Of a stretch of 7,098 nt of DNA, positions 1 to 7,098 are shown piece by piece. Location of the stretch: the IMG/VR virus record IMGVR_UViG_2606217102_000007; one strand, given 5' to 3'. A program made the position numbers and the translations under genes. Under the pieces are notes generated by a model, which was not told the origin of the DNA, ran no database searches, and was given only the letters and a program-made list of their open reading frames with translations. Source of the DNA: a virus (Duplodnaviria > Heunggongvirae > Uroviricota > Caudoviricetes). How positions within the stretch are numbered: the first letter of the stretch is position 1; each line of letters begins with the position of its first letter.

Positions 1-329
1 CGGGCTGAAGACTGGCGCAGGGCGGATGGCAGTACCGGGTCATATTGCTCACCCAGCGTTTCCGCCATTTCTTCCTGAAGTGCGCTGATTCGCTCCTGTG
101 CTTCCTGTATCTGCCGTTCGGTTTTAGCGCGAAGTTTTTCTGAGCTTTTACCGAACTGCATGCGCTGCAGTTTCGCAACCAGCGCCTTCAGCCGGTTGAT
201 TTCGGAAGCATAAGCCGCCACCCGCTGTGAGAGCAGGCGGTTGTATTTCGCCATCTGGCGGATGGTGTCCTGTTGCGTCTGCAACAGTGCCCGCAGGCGG
301 GCATTCTCATGAGCAAGTGAGGTGTCCAT
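1..329 (-). CDS. tnpC: IS66-family transposase TnpC (orf3), N-terminal 110 codons only; continues past window start
   Basis: ATG at 329-327 on the minus strand; my translation reads MDTSLAHENARLRALLQTQQDTIRQMAKYNRLLSQRVAAYASEINRLKALVAKLQRMQFGKSSEKL..., a leucine-zipper-like N-terminus as in IS66 TnpC. Absent from the ORF track because there is no stop in the window. Starts 17 nt after the tnpB stop. Confidence 0.85.
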   Translation of the reverse strand, partial: MDTSLAHENARLRALLQTQQDTIRQMAKYNRLLSQRVAAYASEINRLKALVAKLQRMQFGKSSEKLRAKTERQIQEAQERISALQEEMAETLGEQYDPVLPSALRQSSA

Positions 330-348
330 ATCCTCACTTTACAACGGG

Positions 349-696
349 TTATATGCGGATGCCAGCGCGTTCCGTTCGTTTCGGGTGCTTCCAGTCGATG
401 CCTTCGAGAAGCATGGACAACTGAGCCGGAGTAAGGTGAACCTTTCCATCGCGGGTGACCGGCCAGACGAAGCGGCCCCGCTCCAGGCGTTTGGTGAAGA
501 GGCACAGTCCGTCACTGTCAGCCCACAGCACTTTTATCTGGTCACCCCGGCGTCCGCGGAAGATGAACAGATGCCCGGAGAACGGGTCATCCTTCAGGAC
601 GTTCTGAACTTTTGAGGCCAGGCCGTTAAAGCCATTTCGCATATCGGTGATACCGGCAACCAGCCAGATACGCGAACCGGCAGGGAGAGATATCAT
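349..696 (-). CDS. tnpB: IS66-family accessory protein TnpB (orf2), 115 aa
   Basis: ORF-track protein MISLPAGSRIWLVAGITDMRNGFNGLA...GHLFIFRGRRGDQIKVLWADSDGLCLFTKRLE matches the conserved IS66 Orf2 family by memory; its start codon overlaps the tnpA stop (ATGA). Confidence 0.9.
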   Translation of the reverse strand: MISLPAGSRIWLVAGITDMRNGFNGLASKVQNVLKDDPFSGHLFIFRGRRGDQIKVLWADSDGLCLFTKRLERGRFVWPVTRDGKVHLTPAQLSMLLEGIDWKHPKRTERAGIRI

Positions 697-1346
697 CAGT
701 GGCTGCTCCCTTTCATTTCGCGGATAAGTGTCTGTAATAACGCCGGTGTCAGTTCACCTTTCAGCCTGAGAGTTCCGGCCGGCAGAACCAGCTCGCAGCA
801 CAGACTGTCTGGCAGTGTATTTATCTGTTCAGGTATCTGCACTGGTGCCGGGATTTTATTATCCGGCTCCGGAGTTAACGTCACGGGAAGTAGCGATGTT
901 TCATGTTCGCCGGGCGGTTGCAGGCCACCGTTACGCCAGAGATGCCGCCAGTTAAAGAGCAGGTTATCGTTAATTCCATTCTCTCGAGCTATTTGTGCGA
1001 CACAGGCACCGGGTAAAAGAGTTTGCTGAACCAGTCTCCATTTAAACTCCGGTGAAAATCGGTTCCGGCGGGGTTTCTCTGCTTTCACAGGCTGAGTCAC
1101 GGTCGGGGCTGAAGGGTATCGCCCCGGGAAAAGAGCCCGGGCCAGTTGCCCGCAGGAATATTCACCGGAAAGAGGCCAGTCAGTGAATACCTGGTGAAAT
1201 CGCCTCACCAGAGAAAAAATGGCGGTTTTGCTGACACCAGTCTGCGCAGAAATGCGCGGGTACGACAGTGACTCGTCAAATCTCAGCTGTAGCACACGCA
1301 GGATCAATTCTGGATTATCTGCCAGTACCGCTTTTCGTGCATTCAT
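696..1346 (-). CDS. tnpA: IS66-family TnpA (orf1), 216 aa, helix-turn-helix protein
   Basis: First gene inside the IS terminus; contains the RRNRFSPEFKWRLVQQ...CVAQIARENGINDNLLFNWR segment typical of transposase Orf1/OrfA HTH proteins. The true start could be an alternative codon, since there is no internal Met. Confidence 0.75.
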   Translation of the reverse strand: MNARKAVLADNPELILRVLQLRFDESLSYPRISAQTGVSKTAIFSLVRRFHQVFTDWPLSGEYSCGQLARALFPGRYPSAPTVTQPVKAEKPRRNRFSPEFKWRLVQQTLLPGACVAQIARENGINDNLLFNWRHLWRNGGLQPPGEHETSLLPVTLTPEPDNKIPAPVQIPEQINTLPDSLCCELVLPAGTLRLKGELTPALLQTLIREMKGSSH

Positions 1347-1405
1347 CTTAAATGTCCTTTTACTGCGAAAATGGACATTAGTATCGGAAACAGGAAAGGG
1401 AGGCG

Positions 1406-1431
1406 AAAGACGGTTTAAATGATGCGCTTAC
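1406..1431. repeat. IS66-family terminal inverted repeat (outer end at 1431)
   Basis: Sequence ...gacggtttaaatgatgcgcttac; reverse complement begins GTAAGCG. The inner boundary is approximate because the partner repeat is outside the window. Confidence 0.6.
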
Positions 1432-2770: not shown

Positions 2771-4134
2771 TAATCACCCCATAGTGAAGAAAAGTTACTG
2801 CCGGCTGCTGGCTGTGATACCTGTGTAGGTTGAGATTGCTGCCGCTGAGATTTACCAACATTAACGTTATATTGTTGGTTGTAATTGTCGGTATATTGCT
2901 GAATGTCGCGCATTGATTGTTGCAGTGCTTCAGGGCTTGAGAAATCAACCTGTGGCATACCTTGAAAATACATCTTTGCTTCTGCAACGGTGTTGATACC
3001 GGATGCCCCCATGTCTCTGGCTGCTGCAATGCCCTGATTCTGCATCTTTCCTTGGATTCGCTGTGCAGCGTTGTATAGTTTCCTCTGATCACCACCAGAT
3101 GCACGGCTACGAATATCTGCACCAAGAGCAGGAGAACCTGAAGAGCCTGTAATGCCAGTCATGAAGCCAAGATCGTCAATTGATGCACCAGAAATTGCAT
3201 CAAGATCTTTCTTCATTGCGTAATTCTGCGCGCTTGCTGCCGATGTAGCCGGAGCGGCAATAGAGCCAGCAGGAACGCGAACCATATTCCCCTCGTTGTC
3301 GATACCTTCGTAGAACGCATTAGCCCCAGCGCCGTGAAGCTTCCCGCCTACCGTTACAGTTCTGCCATCTGCTAACTGAACTGTACGCTCATTATTCCCA
3401 ACCGACCCTTTCATTGATGCTCTCTGCATCGATAAATCCTGACCGCGCATCGTGATATTCTGACCGCGTGCTGTTAGCGCCTCTCCAGCCTTATTGCTGC
3501 GGATTGTCTCTGCCAGTCTGCCTCGGTCAATCTCACGACCAGCTATCTTGTCCTGAACAGCAAACGCCTTTTCTGGCCCAAGTGCACCGAGAGACATAGT
3601 AGTCAGCATGTGTGATAGCTGTTCTGGATTCTGGATACCTGTCTGAATCATCCAGTCAGCATTCGCACCCACGCGATTTAACCTGTCCTTGTTGTCAGTA
3701 ATGAATTTACTGTAGGCTTCCGGTCCCTGAGAAAGAGCGACGTTAGCCCTCATGGCTAAATCGCCCATATCGTTGCGTTGCTGCTCATTAAGACCGGAAA
3801 ACGCCTGTTGTGCCTGTGCAACAAACGCTGGATTTTCCTGGGCAAACTTAAATAGTCCCGATGGATCACCAGAAGCCCATGCATCAGCGTGAACCTTATT
3901 GAACGCCCTAATAGCTTTCTGTTGCTGTTCCTGATTGTAAATATCAGCAACTCCAGCCAGACCACGTAACGCGGTCAGACCAACGTTATTTGCACCTGAT
4001 CGAGCCAATTCATTGTTTTCGCGGATCAGACCAAGCGTTGCGTTAATGTCGCTTGCCTTTGGCGCATTCTCATTTTGCGTACCGATGCCAGCCAGAAAAC
4101 CACCAGAATTAATACCCTGTTGCCACGTAGCCAT
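2770..4134 (-). CDS. Phage DNA-ejection (DNA transfer) protein, P22 gp20-like, 454 aa
   Basis: Long intact ORF between the gp7-like and gp16-like genes; the size matches P22 gp20 (about 471 aa). The complement of 4139-4146 gives an AAGGGG ribosome-binding site upstream of the ATG. Gly/Ala/Gln-rich with a Q/N-rich C-terminus. Assignment is by gene order and size, not by sequence search. Confidence 0.55.
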
Positions 4135-4143
4135 GATTACCCC

Positions 4144-4545
4144 TTAAAACAACGAGCCAAGCAGACCAAGACCGCCACCAACAGCGGCACCAATACCAGT
4201 ACCAATACCAGGAACAATGCTGCCAAGTTTTGCTCCAGCAATTGCTCCAGAGGCAGCCCCGCCTATTGCAGATTGAAGGCCGGAAGGTCTATTAGCGTTT
4301 GCCGCCGCCAGTGCCGCGCTTTGCTGTGAAATCTGGCTCATGTTGTTGGCATATGTTTGCCCGGCATTTGCCTGCCCCTGAAGCGCGCCAAGACCAATAT
4401 TTGCCAGATTCTGGTAGTTGTTCATTTGTCCAGATAGCCATTGCTGACCAAGCGTTGGTGCGATTGTTGCTAACTGATTACTGGTTGAGGTGGAACCCAA
4501 TCCACCTGTTGCTTCCGCTGCCGCCAGACTCTGATATTCGCTGAC
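4144..4545 (-). pseudogene. 5'-truncated P22 gp7-like ejection protein gene (C-terminal ~130 codons native; the ORF-track N-terminal ~50 codons are read-through into unrelated DNA)
   Basis: The ORF-track protein (4144-4695) opens with an aberrant W/C/H-rich stretch (MAWWMASSSALWRVPLNGISRLGSNPITFPSSTIVLTSRSFHHCHGTGC), then switches to A/G/Q/N-rich sequence ending in a Gly-zipper-like hydrophobic tail. Those first ~150 nt are antisense to a plus-strand exonuclease-like frame. Confidence 0.5.
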
Positions 4546-4732
4546 AGGGCAGCCAGTTCCATGGCAGTGGTGGAATGACCGCGACGTAAGAACAATCGTC
4601 GAGCTTGGAAAGGTAATAGGATTCGACCCTAAGCGAGATATGCCATTCAAAGGAACTCGCCACAACGCGCTTGATGATGCCATCCACCAAGCCAAATACG
4701 TTTCAGCAATCTGGAAAAAATTAGCTAAATAA
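4535..4732 (+). pseudogene. 3' fragment of a DEDDh-family 3'-5' exonuclease gene (final ~65 codons including the Exo III-like motif)
   Basis: Plus frame open from 4535 (in-frame TGA at 4532-4534) to TAA at 4730-4732: ...WNDRDVRTIVELGKVIGFDPKRDMPFKGTRHNALDDAIHQAKYVSAIWKKLAK. H-N-A-L-D-D-A resembles the Exo III motif (H-x-A-x-x-D-A) of DnaQ-like exonucleases. No N-terminal Exo I/II region is present, and the next gene's RBS and ATG follow 16 nt later. Confidence 0.45.
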
Positions 4733-4737
4733 TCAAC

Positions 4738-4742
4738 AGGAG
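4738..4742 (+). promoter_or_regulatory. Ribosome-binding site (AGGAG) for the 4749 CDS
   Basis: caacAGGAGaaaaacATG, 6-nt spacer to the ATG at 4749. Confidence 0.6.
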
Positions 4743-4748
4743 AAAAAC

Positions 4749-5042
4749 ATGCCAGCGCCTTTGTATGGTGCGGATGACCCGCGCCGCTGTTCCGGCAAAT
4801 CAGTATCGGAGGTGCTGGATAAATTCAGAAAAAACTACGACCTGATAATGTCGCTACCGCAGGAAACGAAAAAGGAAAAGGAATTTCGCCACTGTATATG
4901 GCTTGCAGAGAAAGAAGAACGCGAGCGAATTTACCAGACATCAATCCGACCATTCCGTAAAGCCACATATACCCACTTCCCTGAAATTGACCCGCGCCTG
5001 CGTAATTACCGCTCACGCTATGGCGCTATCAGTAATGACTGA
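4749..5042 (+). CDS. Hypothetical prophage early-region protein, 97 aa, highly charged
   Basis: ATG preceded by an AGGAG RBS; the stop at 5040-5042 lies inside the next gene's RBS (tGAGGAa), indicating operon organisation. No family recognised. Confidence 0.6.
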
Positions 5043-5052
5043 GGAATTTACC

Positions 5053-5217
5053 ATGAGAGGACTTGCATACAATCCCGGCATTCTTCCGGCAGAAATGATT
5101 ATTCGCCAACGCGTAAAGCCAATGCCATCGAGAGAGGAATTGCTTAAGAGAAATTCTTTTCCATCAGTGAATCAAAACAAATATCTGAATGCAATGTGGC
5201 GGAGTTGGAAGAAATGA
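5053..5217 (+). CDS. Hypothetical small basic protein, 54 aa ([54 protein letters not shown])
   Basis: ATG at 5053 with a GAGGAA RBS 6 nt upstream. The ORF track extends the same frame back to 4903, but that would overlap the 97-aa gene; the internal start with an RBS is preferred. Its stop overlaps the next start as ATGA. Confidence 0.4.
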
Positions 5218-5645
5218 AACAAATGTCACTAATTGAGATGGATGGATTTCTGAAAGGTAAATGCATCCCACGAGATTTAAAGGTTAACGAAACAAACGCT
5301 GAATATCTGGTGCGTAAATTTGCTGAAGCGGAGGCCAAGTGCGCGGCGCTGGCAGCGGAGAATGCGGGGATGAAGTCTGGCGCTATGGACGAAATCAAGG
5401 TTATCAACCGTGGAGGGCAGGCATATTGTGTAAAAGATGGAGTGCAAGTTAATCCCATGTATGCAAGAGGGTGGAATGACTATCGCGCAAAGTCTATGCA
5501 ATCAGACACCCCAGCCACCGATGCTTTTCTGGCTGAAGTACGAGCGCAAGGCGTGGAGATGTTTGCGGAGTGTGCATACACACTTGAACATCATGATCAC
5601 GCAGTAGCTTTTGCCGCCGAGCTGCGCAAAGGAGGCAACCAGTGA
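5214..5645 (+). CDS. Hypothetical prophage protein, 143 aa from ATG 5214 (ORF track gives a GTG start at 5196); contains four Cys and an EHHDH cluster
   Basis: ATGA overlap with the upstream stop; GGAG 9 nt upstream of ATG 5214. Its stop (5643-5645) overlaps the next gene's GTG start as GTGA. No family confidently recognised. Confidence 0.6.
5632..5637 (+). promoter_or_regulatory. Ribosome-binding site (AGGAGG) for the 5642 CDS
   Basis: aaAGGAGGcaaccaGTG; strong Shine-Dalgarno sequence 4 nt upstream of the GTG start. Confidence 0.6.
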
Positions 5646-6394
5646 GCAAGATTGACTATCAGGCACTGCGTGAGGCGGCAGAAAAAGCAACGTGTGGCGA
5701 GTGGTCGCTCGAATATGGAGAGGGCCGATTTGATGGTGATGATGCACTAATTCATCGCGAGGCTGCTGGATATATTCCCATTTGCAGAATTGAAGGAGCG
5801 CATCCTGAAAGCGGTTTCGATGAAGATTTCCAAATGGAACAGCAGGCCAATGCTGAATTCATCGCCGCAGCCAATCCGGCTACCGTCTTGGCGCTGCTGG
5901 ATGAGCTGGAAAGAAACCAGCAATACATAAAACGCCTCGACCAGGAGAACGAGGATATTGCGCTAACGGTAGGGAAGCTGCGCGTTGAGCTGGAAGGCAA
6001 AGACAGCAAAATAGCCAATCTTACCGCCGAACGCGATGCTCTTCGTGAAGGTGAGATGGGCGACGCTAGGCATAGCAACACACGGGCCGCAGCTGATATC
6101 TACTTCCAACTGGTCGAGGAGTGCGAAATTCCTGCTGGCGGATCTCTGGTCGAGTACGTTGACGATATGCGCGAGAAGCTGGAAGCCGCAGAGAAGCGCA
6201 TTGCAGAGTTAGAAAGTGGTTCTCAGGCACAAAAGTTAGTTGAAGCAATCATTGTTGCGATAGAAAACGAACAGGAAAGGCTTTTTGATGAAGATTACCT
6301 AATGGATTCGAAAGAATGCATTGACGTAATTCGTGAAGAAGTAAAGCGATGGAATGATTCCCGTGCCGCTGGCATTCGCATCAAAGGAGAGTGA
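5642..6394 (+). CDS. Ead/Ea22-like prophage early protein, 250 aa, acidic with a central coiled coil
   Basis: GTG start with a strong AGGAGG RBS. The N-terminus [21 protein letters not shown] and the AANPATVLALLDELERNQQYIKRLDQENEDIALTVGKLRVELEGKDSKIANLTAERDALREGEM heptad-like region resemble Ead/Ea22-family proteins of lambdoid prophages, as recalled from memory and not searched. Confidence 0.5.
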   Translation: MSKIDYQALREAAEKATCGEWSLEYGEGRFDGDDALIHREAAGYIPICRIEGAHPESGFDEDFQMEQQANAEFIAAANPATVLALLDELERNQQYIKRLDQENEDIALTVGKLRVELEGKDSKIANLTAERDALREGEMGDARHSNTRAAADIYFQLVEECEIPAGGSLVEYVDDMREKLEAAEKRIAELESGSQAQKLVEAIIVAIENEQERLFDEDYLMDSKECIDVIREEVKRWNDSRAAGIRIKGE

Positions 6395-6395
6395 G

Positions 6396-7098
6396 ATGAT
6401 TCACTATCACGGTGGGCCTATTACTCCGGATACGTGCGCCATGAGAGCATGGAAAGGGCGACATGCGTTTATCAGTTTTGCGCATTCAGGCCAGATCAAT
6501 CTCGCGGCTGAATACTGTCAGTCGTTCGCGCTGGACAACGGTGCATTCACCGCCTGGAAAGCAGCTGGCAAAAACAAAATCGACTGGAGCGATTACTACG
6601 AGTTTGTTGCTCGCTGGAAGAATCACCCAGGATTCGATTTTGCCATTATCCCGGATGTTATTGATGGCGGAGAGGAGAAAAATGATGCGCTTCTGAATGA
6701 GTGGCCTCACGGAAAACTAGCTGGCGTTCCAGTGTGGCACATGAATGAAAGTGACGAGCGATTTATTCATTTGTGCAATGAGTTTCCGCGAGTGGCTATC
6801 GGTAGTTGTGGCGACTATGACGTAAAGCGCCCAACTCTTGCGGTAGCCAGAATGAAAGACCTGATTCGTCACATTGTTGATGAGCATGGTCAGCCGGTTA
6901 CGAAACTACATGGATTGCGCATGTTAAATCCGCAGATATTCACAAAATTACCCTTAGCCAGCGCAGATAGTACGAACGTCGCTCGAAACATCGGTATTGA
7001 TAAAGCCTGGTCTGGGGCTTATGCACCTGCAAGTAAAGAGACACGCGCAGCATTAATGGTAGAACGGATTGAGGCACACAATAGCCCTGGTTCTCTTG
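6396..7098 (+). CDS. TGT-superfamily protein, candidate DpdA-like 7-deazaguanine DNA transglycosylase (first 234 codons; continues past window end)
   Basis: ATG at 6396 with AGGAG 6 nt upstream, open to the window end, so absent from the ORF track. Motif order and spacing parallel bacterial Tgt: LDNGAF (D47, 6534-6536) vs TDSGGF; AIIPDVIDGG vs IVMIFDEC; RVAIGSCGD vs YAVGGLAVGE; KLHGLRMLNP vs YLMGVGKP; ADSTNVARNIG (D191, 6966-6968) vs FDCVMPTRNARNG, the nucleophile-Asp motif. No Zn-binding CxCxxC is seen in the portion present. Confidence 0.55.
   Translation, partial: MIHYHGGPITPDTCAMRAWKGRHAFISFAHSGQINLAAEYCQSFALDNGAFTAWKAAGKNKIDWSDYYEFVARWKNHPGFDFAIIPDVIDGGEEKNDALLNEWPHGKLAGVPVWHMNESDERFIHLCNEFPRVAIGSCGDYDVKRPTLAVARMKDLIRHIVDEHGQPVTKLHGLRMLNPQIFTKLPLASADSTNVARNIGIDKAWSGAYAPASKETRAALMVERIEAHNSPGSL

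What the first reader, a model, noticed from the sequence alone, without database searches (positions are those of the whole stretch)
6396..7098. Candidate DpdA-like 7-deazaguanine DNA transglycosylase in the prophage early operon
Five motifs occur in the same order and with similar spacing as the catalytic landmarks of bacterial tRNA-guanine transglycosylase, including LDNGAF (cf. TDSGGF) and ADSTNVARNIG (cf. the nucleophile-Asp motif FDCVMPTRNARNG). The protein appears compact with no Zn-binding CxCxxC in the part present, as would fit a phage-type DpdA. By established knowledge, DpdA enzymes swap guanine in DNA for preQ0-type 7-deazaguanines and protect phage DNA from restriction; a lone copy here would depend on host QueCDE for the base. 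A DNA-hypermodification gene in a lambdoid early-left operon, coupled to unknown partners, is a plausible anti-restriction system.
Basis: partly seen in the sequence, partly recalled or inferred. Interest (0 to 1): 0.7.

Follow-up and report, generated by a model that had tools for sequence, protein, structure and literature searches.

The report
Lone phage DpdA gene, already catalogued
The open reading frame is a compact phage-type relative of the enzymes that swap guanine in DNA for 7-deazaguanine bases; this family was already listed in the literature in 2019, and here it sits in a crippled prophage, so the finding is correct but ordinary.

Summary
An ORF starts at ATG 6396 and runs off the window end. 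It shows 234 of 251 codons and carries LDNGAF (aa 46-51, D47) and ADSTNVARNIG (aa 190-200, D191).

The DpdA reading also holds:
- PHROG 887 'queuine tRNA-ribosyltransferase', E 9e-99.
- Profile-profile match to the experimentally validated phage 9g DpdA: 98.3%, E 1.7e-14, with the motifs in register.
- 38% and 35% identity to the lone DpdAs of phages MED16 and 7-11, whose DNA contains dADG.
- D47, D87, H115, G136, H172 and D191 are 95-100% conserved.

The family has no zinc site, and neither does 9g DpdA. Its neighbours vary, so there is no conserved partner. No preQ0 genes lie nearby.

The 93%-identical SPN3UB protein is already listed as a 'DpdA-only' phage gene (Hutinet 2019), so this is already known.

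Caveats:
- Relatives carry only 0.02-0.13% dADG, with no measured protection from restriction.
- This copy lies in a deletion remnant of a P22-like prophage that has lost its early promoter.

Interest is low.

The parts
6396..7098 (+). dpdA-like ORF: first 234 of 251 codons, cut by the window end
   Evidence: Translation. Full length in L001:12001-12756. PHROG 887 E 9e-99. hhalign to 9g DpdA 98.3%.
6384..6389 (+). Shine-Dalgarno-like AAGGAG, 6 nt before the ATG. The upstream gene's stop (6392-6394) lies between them, which suggests translational coupling.
   Evidence: Read directly from the sequence.
6531..6548 (+). LDNGAF motif at the end of strand beta3. D47 (6534-6536) is the predicted general acid/base, equivalent to D95 of bacterial DpdA and the TDSGGF Asp of TGT.
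   Evidence: D47 98% conserved in 87 sequences. Aligned to LDSGAF of 9g DpdA. Strand positions from the model.
6654..6656 (+). D87 (IIPD, end of beta4), the predicted base-recognition Asp
   Evidence: 98% conserved. Assigned by its position at the strand end in the model. Inferred equivalent of D130 of bacterial DpdA (PMC10164549).
6738..6740 (+). H115 (VWH, end of beta5), the predicted base-edge contact
   Evidence: 99% conserved. Aligned to FH of 9g DpdA. Inferred equivalent of H181 of bacterial DpdA.
6909..6911 (+). H172 (KLHGLRM, beta7), the only invariant residue. Predicted hydrogen-bond partner of the nucleophile, as H226 is in Cap10.
   Evidence: 100% conserved. Aligned to KVHGFGI of 9g DpdA. 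The role is inferred from the Cap10 description (10.1101/2025.04.06.647259).
6963..6995 (+). ADSTNVARNIG motif at the end of beta8. D191 (6966-6968) is the predicted nucleophile that forms the covalent enzyme-deoxyribose intermediate.
   Evidence: D191 98% and S192 99% conserved. Aligned to SCDSS of 9g DpdA. D47-D191 spacing is 144 residues against 143 in 9g DpdA.
4749..6394 (+). Upstream genes of the same tightly packed early-left block: abc2 anti-RecBCD (4749-5042), DUF2737 (5053-5217), a hypothetical (about 5214-5645) and an Ead/Ea22-like gene (5642-6394)
   Evidence: Pfam and PHROG hits. RefSeq annotation of L001.
4535..4732 (+). C-terminal 65 codons of an Rv2179c-like 3'-5' exonuclease gene. 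Its 5' end marks the prophage deletion junction (about 4535-4542), where it abuts the 5'-truncated P22 gp7 gene on the other strand.
   Evidence: PF16473 positions 118-177/177 and PF25688 positions 101-230/230. RefSeq 'partial' flags. No sigma-70-like promoter in 4100-7098.

Best explanation
The ORF encodes a member of the compact (about 250 aa), zinc-less 'singleton' clade of phage DpdA, the DNA-guanine transglycosylases related to tRNA-guanine transglycosylase.

Most likely mechanism, inferred from homologues: during lytic growth the enzyme flips out a guanine in double-stranded DNA. D47 protonates the leaving base. D191 attacks C1' to form a covalent enzyme-deoxyribose intermediate. A 7-deazaguanine made by the host queuosine pathway (preQ0 or its amide ADG) then takes the guanine's place.

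In relatives of this clade the product found in virion DNA is dADG, and only at a few to a few dozen sites per genome.

The gene travels alone as a mobile early-region gene of temperate enterobacterial phages.

In this window it sits in a deletion remnant of a P22-like prophage that has lost PL, so this copy is probably silent.

Shown here: homology, fold, and conservation of the catalytic set. Inferred: substrate, product, and expression status.
For: Sequence homology:
- PHROG 887 'queuine tRNA-ribosyltransferase', E 9e-99.
- hhalign of the family profile against 9g DpdA, which inserts preQ0 into DNA in E. coli (PMC6884629): 98.3%, E 1.7e-14, all motifs in register. Pairwise BLASTP E 2e-7.
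- 38% identity, E 4e-44, to MED16 DpdA.
- 35% identity, E 3e-33, to 7-11 DpdA. Both are lone DpdAs, and both phages have dADG in their DNA (PMC8306585, PMC6884629).
- 92.7% identity to the SPN3UB protein listed as DpdA in Hutinet 2019, Supplementary Data 1.

Fold:
- AF2 model pLDDT 92.8, pTM 0.90, eight-stranded barrel.
- BFVD Foldseek: 27 hits with E<=1e-3, and all the named ones are phage 'queuine tRNA-ribosyltransferase'.

Conservation and constraint:
- D47, D87, H115, G136, H172 and D191 are 95-100% conserved down to about 33% identity, and all lie at the C-terminal ends of strands.
- dN/dS about 0.02.

Context:
- Early-operon position in intact phages SfI and SPN3UB.
- One homologue lies next to a QueD-like gene, and one is fused to a Dam-type DNA methylase.
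Against: No member of this exact clade has been assayed as an enzyme. The link to dADG in 7-11 and MED16 is correlative.

Hutinet 2019 explicitly leaves open whether the singleton clade has diverged in function.

The modification levels in those phages are tiny (0.02% and 0.13% of G), and no protection from restriction enzymes was seen for MED16.

Pfam, NCBIfam, PADLOC and HMMER against the PDB give nothing. However, validated 9g DpdA also fails Pfam.

This copy has no recognisable promoter.
Confidence: 0.72

Rival explanations
1. It is the first reader's stronger version: a true DNA-hypermodification, anti-restriction system that replaces a substantial share of guanines and protects the phage genome from host restriction enzymes, possibly with neighbouring partner genes.
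For: DpdA1 enzymes with a co-encoded preQ0 pathway modify 25-32% of G and block many restriction enzymes (PMC6884629). The gene sits among early anti-host genes such as abc2.
Against: No FolE, QueD, QueC or QueE homologue lies within +/-8 kb in 80 related viral loci. Neighbours are not conserved. Lone-DpdA relatives reach only 0.02-0.13% of G, and MED16 DNA was cut normally. 9g DpdA alone in E. coli gave 0.03-0.3% of G.
Confidence: 0.12
2. It is a TGT-fold enzyme that has diverged to another job. Candidates are exchanging a base in host or phage RNA, removing rather than inserting a base (glycosylase-like), or handling a base tethered to a protein as Cap10 does in type IV CBASS.
Against: No Cap9/QueC-like or CD-NTase gene lies nearby. 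The full base-exchange residue set is conserved. The closest validated homologue by sequence is a DNA enzyme. The protein lacks the zinc subdomain and other extra domains of the tRNA enzymes. 7-Deazaguanine is in fact present in the DNA of two phages carrying clade members.
Confidence: 0.14
3. It is an unrelated TIM-barrel protein, and the TGT-like motifs are a chance resemblance.
For: No Pfam, NCBIfam or PDB sequence hit. Foldseek against the PDB returns only generic barrels. hhalign against a single E. coli Tgt sequence finds nothing.
Confidence: 0.02

Closest known systems
Singleton ('DpdA-only') phage DpdA of gamma-proteobacterial phages: group 3 of Hutinet et al. 2019, cluster DpdA/TGT_1 of the MED16 study. 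Members include SPN3UB, BTP1, SfI, HK106, SEN1, 7-11 and MED16.
   Same: Same family. 92.7% identity to SPN3UB, 69.5% to SfI, 38% to MED16, 35% to 7-11. Same length of about 250 aa, same motifs, no preQ0 genes in the phage, and an early-region location.
   Different: No difference in the protein. This copy lies in a defective, promoter-less prophage remnant, and RefSeq labels it 'hypothetical protein'.
DpdA1 of Enterobacteria phage 9g / Escherichia phage CAjan (validated preQ0 DNA transglycosylase)
   Same: Homologous barrel core with LD(N/S)GAF, (W/F)H, K(L/V)HG and S(A/C)DS(T/S) in register. Asp-to-Asp spacing is 144 against 143 residues. No CxCxxC zinc motif in either.
   Different: Only 22% identity. 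9g DpdA is 317 aa, with extra N- and C-terminal segments. It is encoded next to folE, queD, queE and gat-queC and modifies about a quarter of G.
Bacterial DpdA of the Dpd restriction-modification system (Salmonella Montevideo, PDB 7UI4)
   Different: 413 aa, with a 128-residue Ins8 carrying the structural zinc site. It needs the DpdB ATPase and is part of a multi-gene island. PADLOC's DpdA model does not match the window protein.
Cap10 of type IV CBASS (PDB 9NTN chain B)
Bacterial tRNA-guanine transglycosylase (Tgt, Pfam PF01702)
   Same: Same superfamily fold and catalytic logic: TDSGGF compared with LDNGAF, FDCV compared with ADST.
   Different: Tgt is 375 aa with a CDCYTC zinc site, acts on tRNA, and has an Asp-to-Asp spacing of 175 residues. 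No detectable sequence-profile match.

Membership tests
Phage DpdA (DNA-guanine transglycosylase), singleton clade | Significant sequence homology to proteins already assigned to the clade | tested here: met
   92.7% identity to SPN3UB, 69.5% to SfI, and 35-42% to SEN1, HK106 and 7-11. 38% identity, E 4e-44, to MED16. These proteins are listed as DpdA in Hutinet 2019, Supplementary Data 1. PHROG 887 E 9e-99.
Phage DpdA (DNA-guanine transglycosylase), singleton clade | Homology to an experimentally validated DpdA | tested here: met
   hhalign against 9g DpdA: 98.3%, E 1.7e-14, 149 columns. BLASTP E 2e-7.
Phage DpdA (DNA-guanine transglycosylase), singleton clade | TGT-like (beta/alpha)8 barrel | tested here: met
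   [not shown]
Phage DpdA (DNA-guanine transglycosylase), singleton clade | Catalytic Asp pair (general acid/base after beta3, nucleophile after beta8) plus the base-recognition Asp and His | tested here: met
   D47 98%, D87 98%, H115 99% and D191 98% conserved in 87 sequences down to about 33% identity. Strand ends taken from the model.
Phage DpdA (DNA-guanine transglycosylase), singleton clade | No preQ0 or G+ synthesis genes in the same phage (lone gene) | tested here: met
   None in the annotated prophage remnant. No tblastn hit for 9g FolE, QueD, Gat-QueC or QueE within +/-8 kb in 80 viral loci plus four annotated phage loci.
Phage DpdA (DNA-guanine transglycosylase), singleton clade | Exchange of guanine in DNA for a 7-deazaguanine | not testable with these tools
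   Correlative only: dADG in the DNA of 7-11 (50 per 10^6 nt) and MED16 (354 per 10^6 nt).
Bacterial DpdA (Dpd system) | Structural zinc site within the large beta8/alpha8 insertion (Ins8) | tested here: not met
   The protein ends 60 residues after D191. There is no CxCxxC and no conserved Cys.
Bacterial DpdA (Dpd system) | Genetic association with dpdB, dpdC and the dpdD-K restriction genes | tested here: not met
   Neighbours are phage early genes and vary between loci. The PADLOC DpdA model gives no hit.
tRNA-guanine transglycosylase (Pfam PF01702) | Match to the family profile above the gathering score | tested here: not met
   No Pfam hit for the window protein or any of the 87 family members. 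As a control, validated 9g DpdA also gives no hit.
Cap10 (type IV CBASS) | Operon with a Cap9 (QueC-like) gene and a CD-NTase carrying an N-terminal Gly-rich tail | tested here: not met
   No such genes in the window, in L001 or in related loci.

The most novel reading that the evidence does not exclude
The zinc-less, partner-less DpdA clade carried by temperate enterobacterial phages may not be a bulk anti-restriction device. It may instead be a specialised enzyme that places ADG, rather than preQ0, at a handful of specific sites per genome. It would use a host QueC-pathway intermediate, and the marks might serve as a self-mark, a packaging or replication signal, or a decoy against modification-sensing defences.
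Probability: 0.2. Interest if true: 0.55.

Novelty: already known. Interest (0 to 1): 0.22.

Why it matters
It matters little as a discovery. The family is in PHROGs and in the published DpdA catalogue.

Two points have modest value. First, RefSeq still labels this widespread gene 'hypothetical protein'; it is found in 201 of 5426 complete E. coli genomes and in a Stx1a-converting phage. Second, no lone DpdA of a temperate coliphage has been tested biochemically, so it remains open what a few dADG residues per genome do for a lambdoid phage.

Tried and rejected
Searches that found nothing:
- Pfam, NCBIfam and PADLOC scans of the protein, and Pfam on all 87 family members. I rejected these as evidence against DpdA, because validated 9g DpdA also fails Pfam and reaches only E 0.02 on PADLOC's DpdA model.
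- phmmer and a family-profile hmmsearch against PDB sequences. The only result was a spurious E 0.39 metalloproteinase hit.
- Foldseek against the PDB: only generic TIM barrels, none with E<1e-3.
- hhalign of the family profile against a single E. coli Tgt sequence.

Tool problems:
- The search for related loci with the 87-sequence alignment failed because the alignment was too diverse. I repeated it with an 18-sequence alignment.
- The afdb50 library was unavailable.

Ideas considered and rejected:
- A conserved partner gene. Upstream neighbours form 35 clusters among 72 loci. The largest downstream cluster (23 of 60) matches the SPN3UB gene annotated 'putative Eaa protein'.
- Nearby preQ0-pathway genes. 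None was found in 80 viral loci plus four annotated phage loci.
- A defence 'moron' expressed from the lysogen. Judged unlikely because the gene is packed into the delayed-early operon without its own promoter.

Full report
**The observation**

The + strand carries an ORF that starts at ATG 6396-6398. The start lies one base after the TGA of the preceding Ea22-like gene and six bases after an AAGGAG. The ORF stays open to the last base of the window, giving 234 codons.

Megablast finds the same gene at 95% identity or more in 200 of the 201 complete E. coli genomes (of 5426) that carry it. In strain E100341 it is a 251-codon CDS labelled 'hypothetical protein' (WP_113419895.1), so the window lacks only 17 C-terminal residues.

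There is no CxCxxC in the window part or in the full-length protein.

**What it is by sequence**

Pfam and NCBIfam give no hit. PHROGs places the protein in phrog_887, 'queuine tRNA-ribosyltransferase', with E 9e-99.

tblastn against GenBank phages finds 108 records:
- a Stx1a-converting phage: 98.3% identity
- Salmonella phage SPN3UB and relatives: 92.7%
- SfI: 69.5%
- SEN1 and SW9: 41.6%
- HK106: 38.5%
- Salmonella phage 7-11: 35.5%

Hutinet et al. [quoted passage not shown] That is their third group of 76 phages. They note that these singleton DpdAs form a separate cluster in phages of gamma-proteobacteria.

**Link to a validated enzyme**

An 87-sequence family alignment (A1), reaching down to about 33% identity, was compared by hhalign with the DpdA of phage 9g. 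That enzyme was shown to insert preQ0 into DNA when expressed alone in E. coli. The comparison gives 98.3% probability and E 1.7e-14 over 149 columns. The motifs line up as follows:
- LDNGAF on LDSGAF
- VWH on CFH
- AIGS on TLGG
- KLHGLRM on KVHGFGI
- SADST on SCDSS

Pairwise BLASTP already gives E 2e-7. The distance between the two catalytic Asp residues is 144 residues here and 143 in 9g DpdA, against 175 in E. coli Tgt.

9g DpdA also has no CxCxxC.

As a control for the negative library searches, 9g DpdA itself has no Pfam TGT hit and reaches only E 0.02 on PADLOC's DpdA model.

**Fold**

AlphaFold2 was run on the alignment, with the 251-aa Salmonella orthologue P0001 as target. P0001 is 93% identical to the window protein. 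The model has mean pLDDT 92.8 and pTM 0.90, with eight beta-strands alternating with helices.

Foldseek against the PDB returned only generic barrels with weak E-values. Foldseek against BFVD gave 27 hits at E<=1e-3, and every named one is a phage 'queuine tRNA-ribosyltransferase'.

A published HHpred run on the MED16 protein, which is 38% identical to this one, matched T. maritima TGT at 99.18% (PMC8306585).

**Active site**

In the 87-sequence alignment the most conserved residues are:

| Residue | Conservation |
|---|---|
| D47 | 98% |
| N48 | 91% |
| D87 | 98% |
| N96 | 99% |
| H115 | 99% |
| E118 | 98% |
| G136 | 95% |
| H172 | 100% |
| D191 | 98% |
| S192 | 99% |

D47, D87, H115, G136, H172 and D191 fall at or just after the C-terminal ends of strands 3, 4, 5, 6, 7 and 8 of the model. 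That is the catalytic face of a TIM barrel.

The same topological positions hold D95, D130, H181, G206/G207 and D256 in bacterial DpdA. There, D95A and D256A abolish guanine exchange (PMC10164549). Cap10 pairs its nucleophile D248 with H226. The invariant H172 is the likely equivalent; this is an inference.

No cysteine is conserved, so there is no zinc site.

The gene is under strong purifying selection: dN/dS is about 0.02 against Salmonella-type orthologues.

**Context**

The window is part of a P22-like prophage next to sbcB. On the + strand the genes run as follows, all butted together:
- a C-terminal fragment of an Rv2179c-like exonuclease gene (4535-4732)
- abc2 anti-RecBCD (4749-5042)
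- DUF2737
- a hypothetical gene
- an Ead/Ea22-like gene
- the dpdA-like gene
- beyond the window: DUF551, DUF4222, an excisionase-like gene and int

The prophage is a remnant, however. The exonuclease fragment abuts, head to head, a P22 gp7 gene that lacks its first 100 or so codons. The immunity, replication, lysis and head regions, and PL with them, are therefore gone. No sigma-70-like promoter is found in 4100-7098, where 3.6 would be expected by chance.

The same remnant occurs at 99.9% identity in strains EC0026B, AST19, AST205 and E100341. This copy is therefore probably silent; that is an inference.

**Partners**

I found no conserved partner.
- In SfI the gene follows exo and DUF1317 in the early-left operon. 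In SPN3UB it lies in the early-right region after the replication genes.
- In 80 IMG/VR loci plus four annotated phage loci, the upstream neighbour falls into 35 clusters among 72 loci. The largest downstream cluster (23 of 60) matches the SPN3UB gene annotated 'putative Eaa protein'.
- No FolE, QueD, QueC or QueE homologue lies within 8 kb.

Two weak links to DNA modification were seen. A Caulobacter phage homologue sits next to a short QueD/PTPS-like gene. One representative is fused to a Dam-type methylase domain.

**How it most likely works**

By homology, the enzyme exchanges guanine in duplex DNA for a host-made 7-deazaguanine. D47 acts as general acid/base and D191 forms a covalent intermediate.

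What is known experimentally for lone DpdAs of this clade is limited to virion DNA composition:
- Phage 7-11: dADG at 50 per 10^6 nt, about 0.02% of G.
- Phage MED16: dADG at 354 per 10^6 nt, about 0.13% of G, with almost no dPreQ0. The dADG had no noticeable effect on the restriction enzymes tested.

A bulk anti-restriction role is therefore doubtful. Hutinet et al. left open whether this clade has diverged in function.

I found no paper in the searchable library that tests a lone DpdA from a lambdoid or P22-like phage.

**Verdict**

The family is already known, so novelty is low.

The remaining open question is biochemical: what base does this compact clade insert, where, and to what end?

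Noticed in passing
window 1-1427: An IS66-family element is inserted into the 3' end of the P22 gp16-like DNA-transfer gene. It carries TnpB_IS66 at 349-696 (-) and an HTH_Tnp_1 protein at 696-1346 (-). The interrupted gene (1415-2770, -) is 451 aa here against 621 aa in E100341. Related E. coli genomes match the window only from base 1428 onward.
   Followed up: partly
window about 4535-4542: A prophage deletion junction. The P22 gp7 ejection gene (4144-4695, -) lacks about 100 N-terminal codons. It abuts the last 65 codons of a 3'-5' exonuclease gene on the + strand. The whole immunity, replication, lysis and head region is missing. The same remnant is found at 99.9% identity in four other E. 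coli strains.
   Followed up: yes
[not shown]
   Followed up: partly
protein P0232 (421 aa, metagenomic representative): One ORF carries a D12-class Dam-like DNA adenine methylase domain (residues 7-193) followed by a DpdA-like domain. I did not check whether the fusion is real or a gene-calling artefact.
   Followed up: no
L006:5705-6726 (Caulobacter phage DMCA): A 37%-identical homologue directly follows a 98-aa PTPS/QueD-like gene (Pfam PF01242, 22.5 bits, just above the cut-off). This was the only case seen of a preQ0-pathway gene beside a member of this clade.
   Followed up: partly
E. coli genomes: Five of the 214 places where the gene occurs are on plasmids (for example NZ_CP069886.1, 91.6 kb), possibly phage-plasmids. 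A 98.3%-identical copy lies in a Stx1a-converting phage (LC744180.1).
   Followed up: no
window 4749-5042: An intact P22-type abc2 anti-RecBCD gene (PF11043, E 1.7e-63) heads the surviving early-left block, immediately after the exonuclease fragment.
   Followed up: partly
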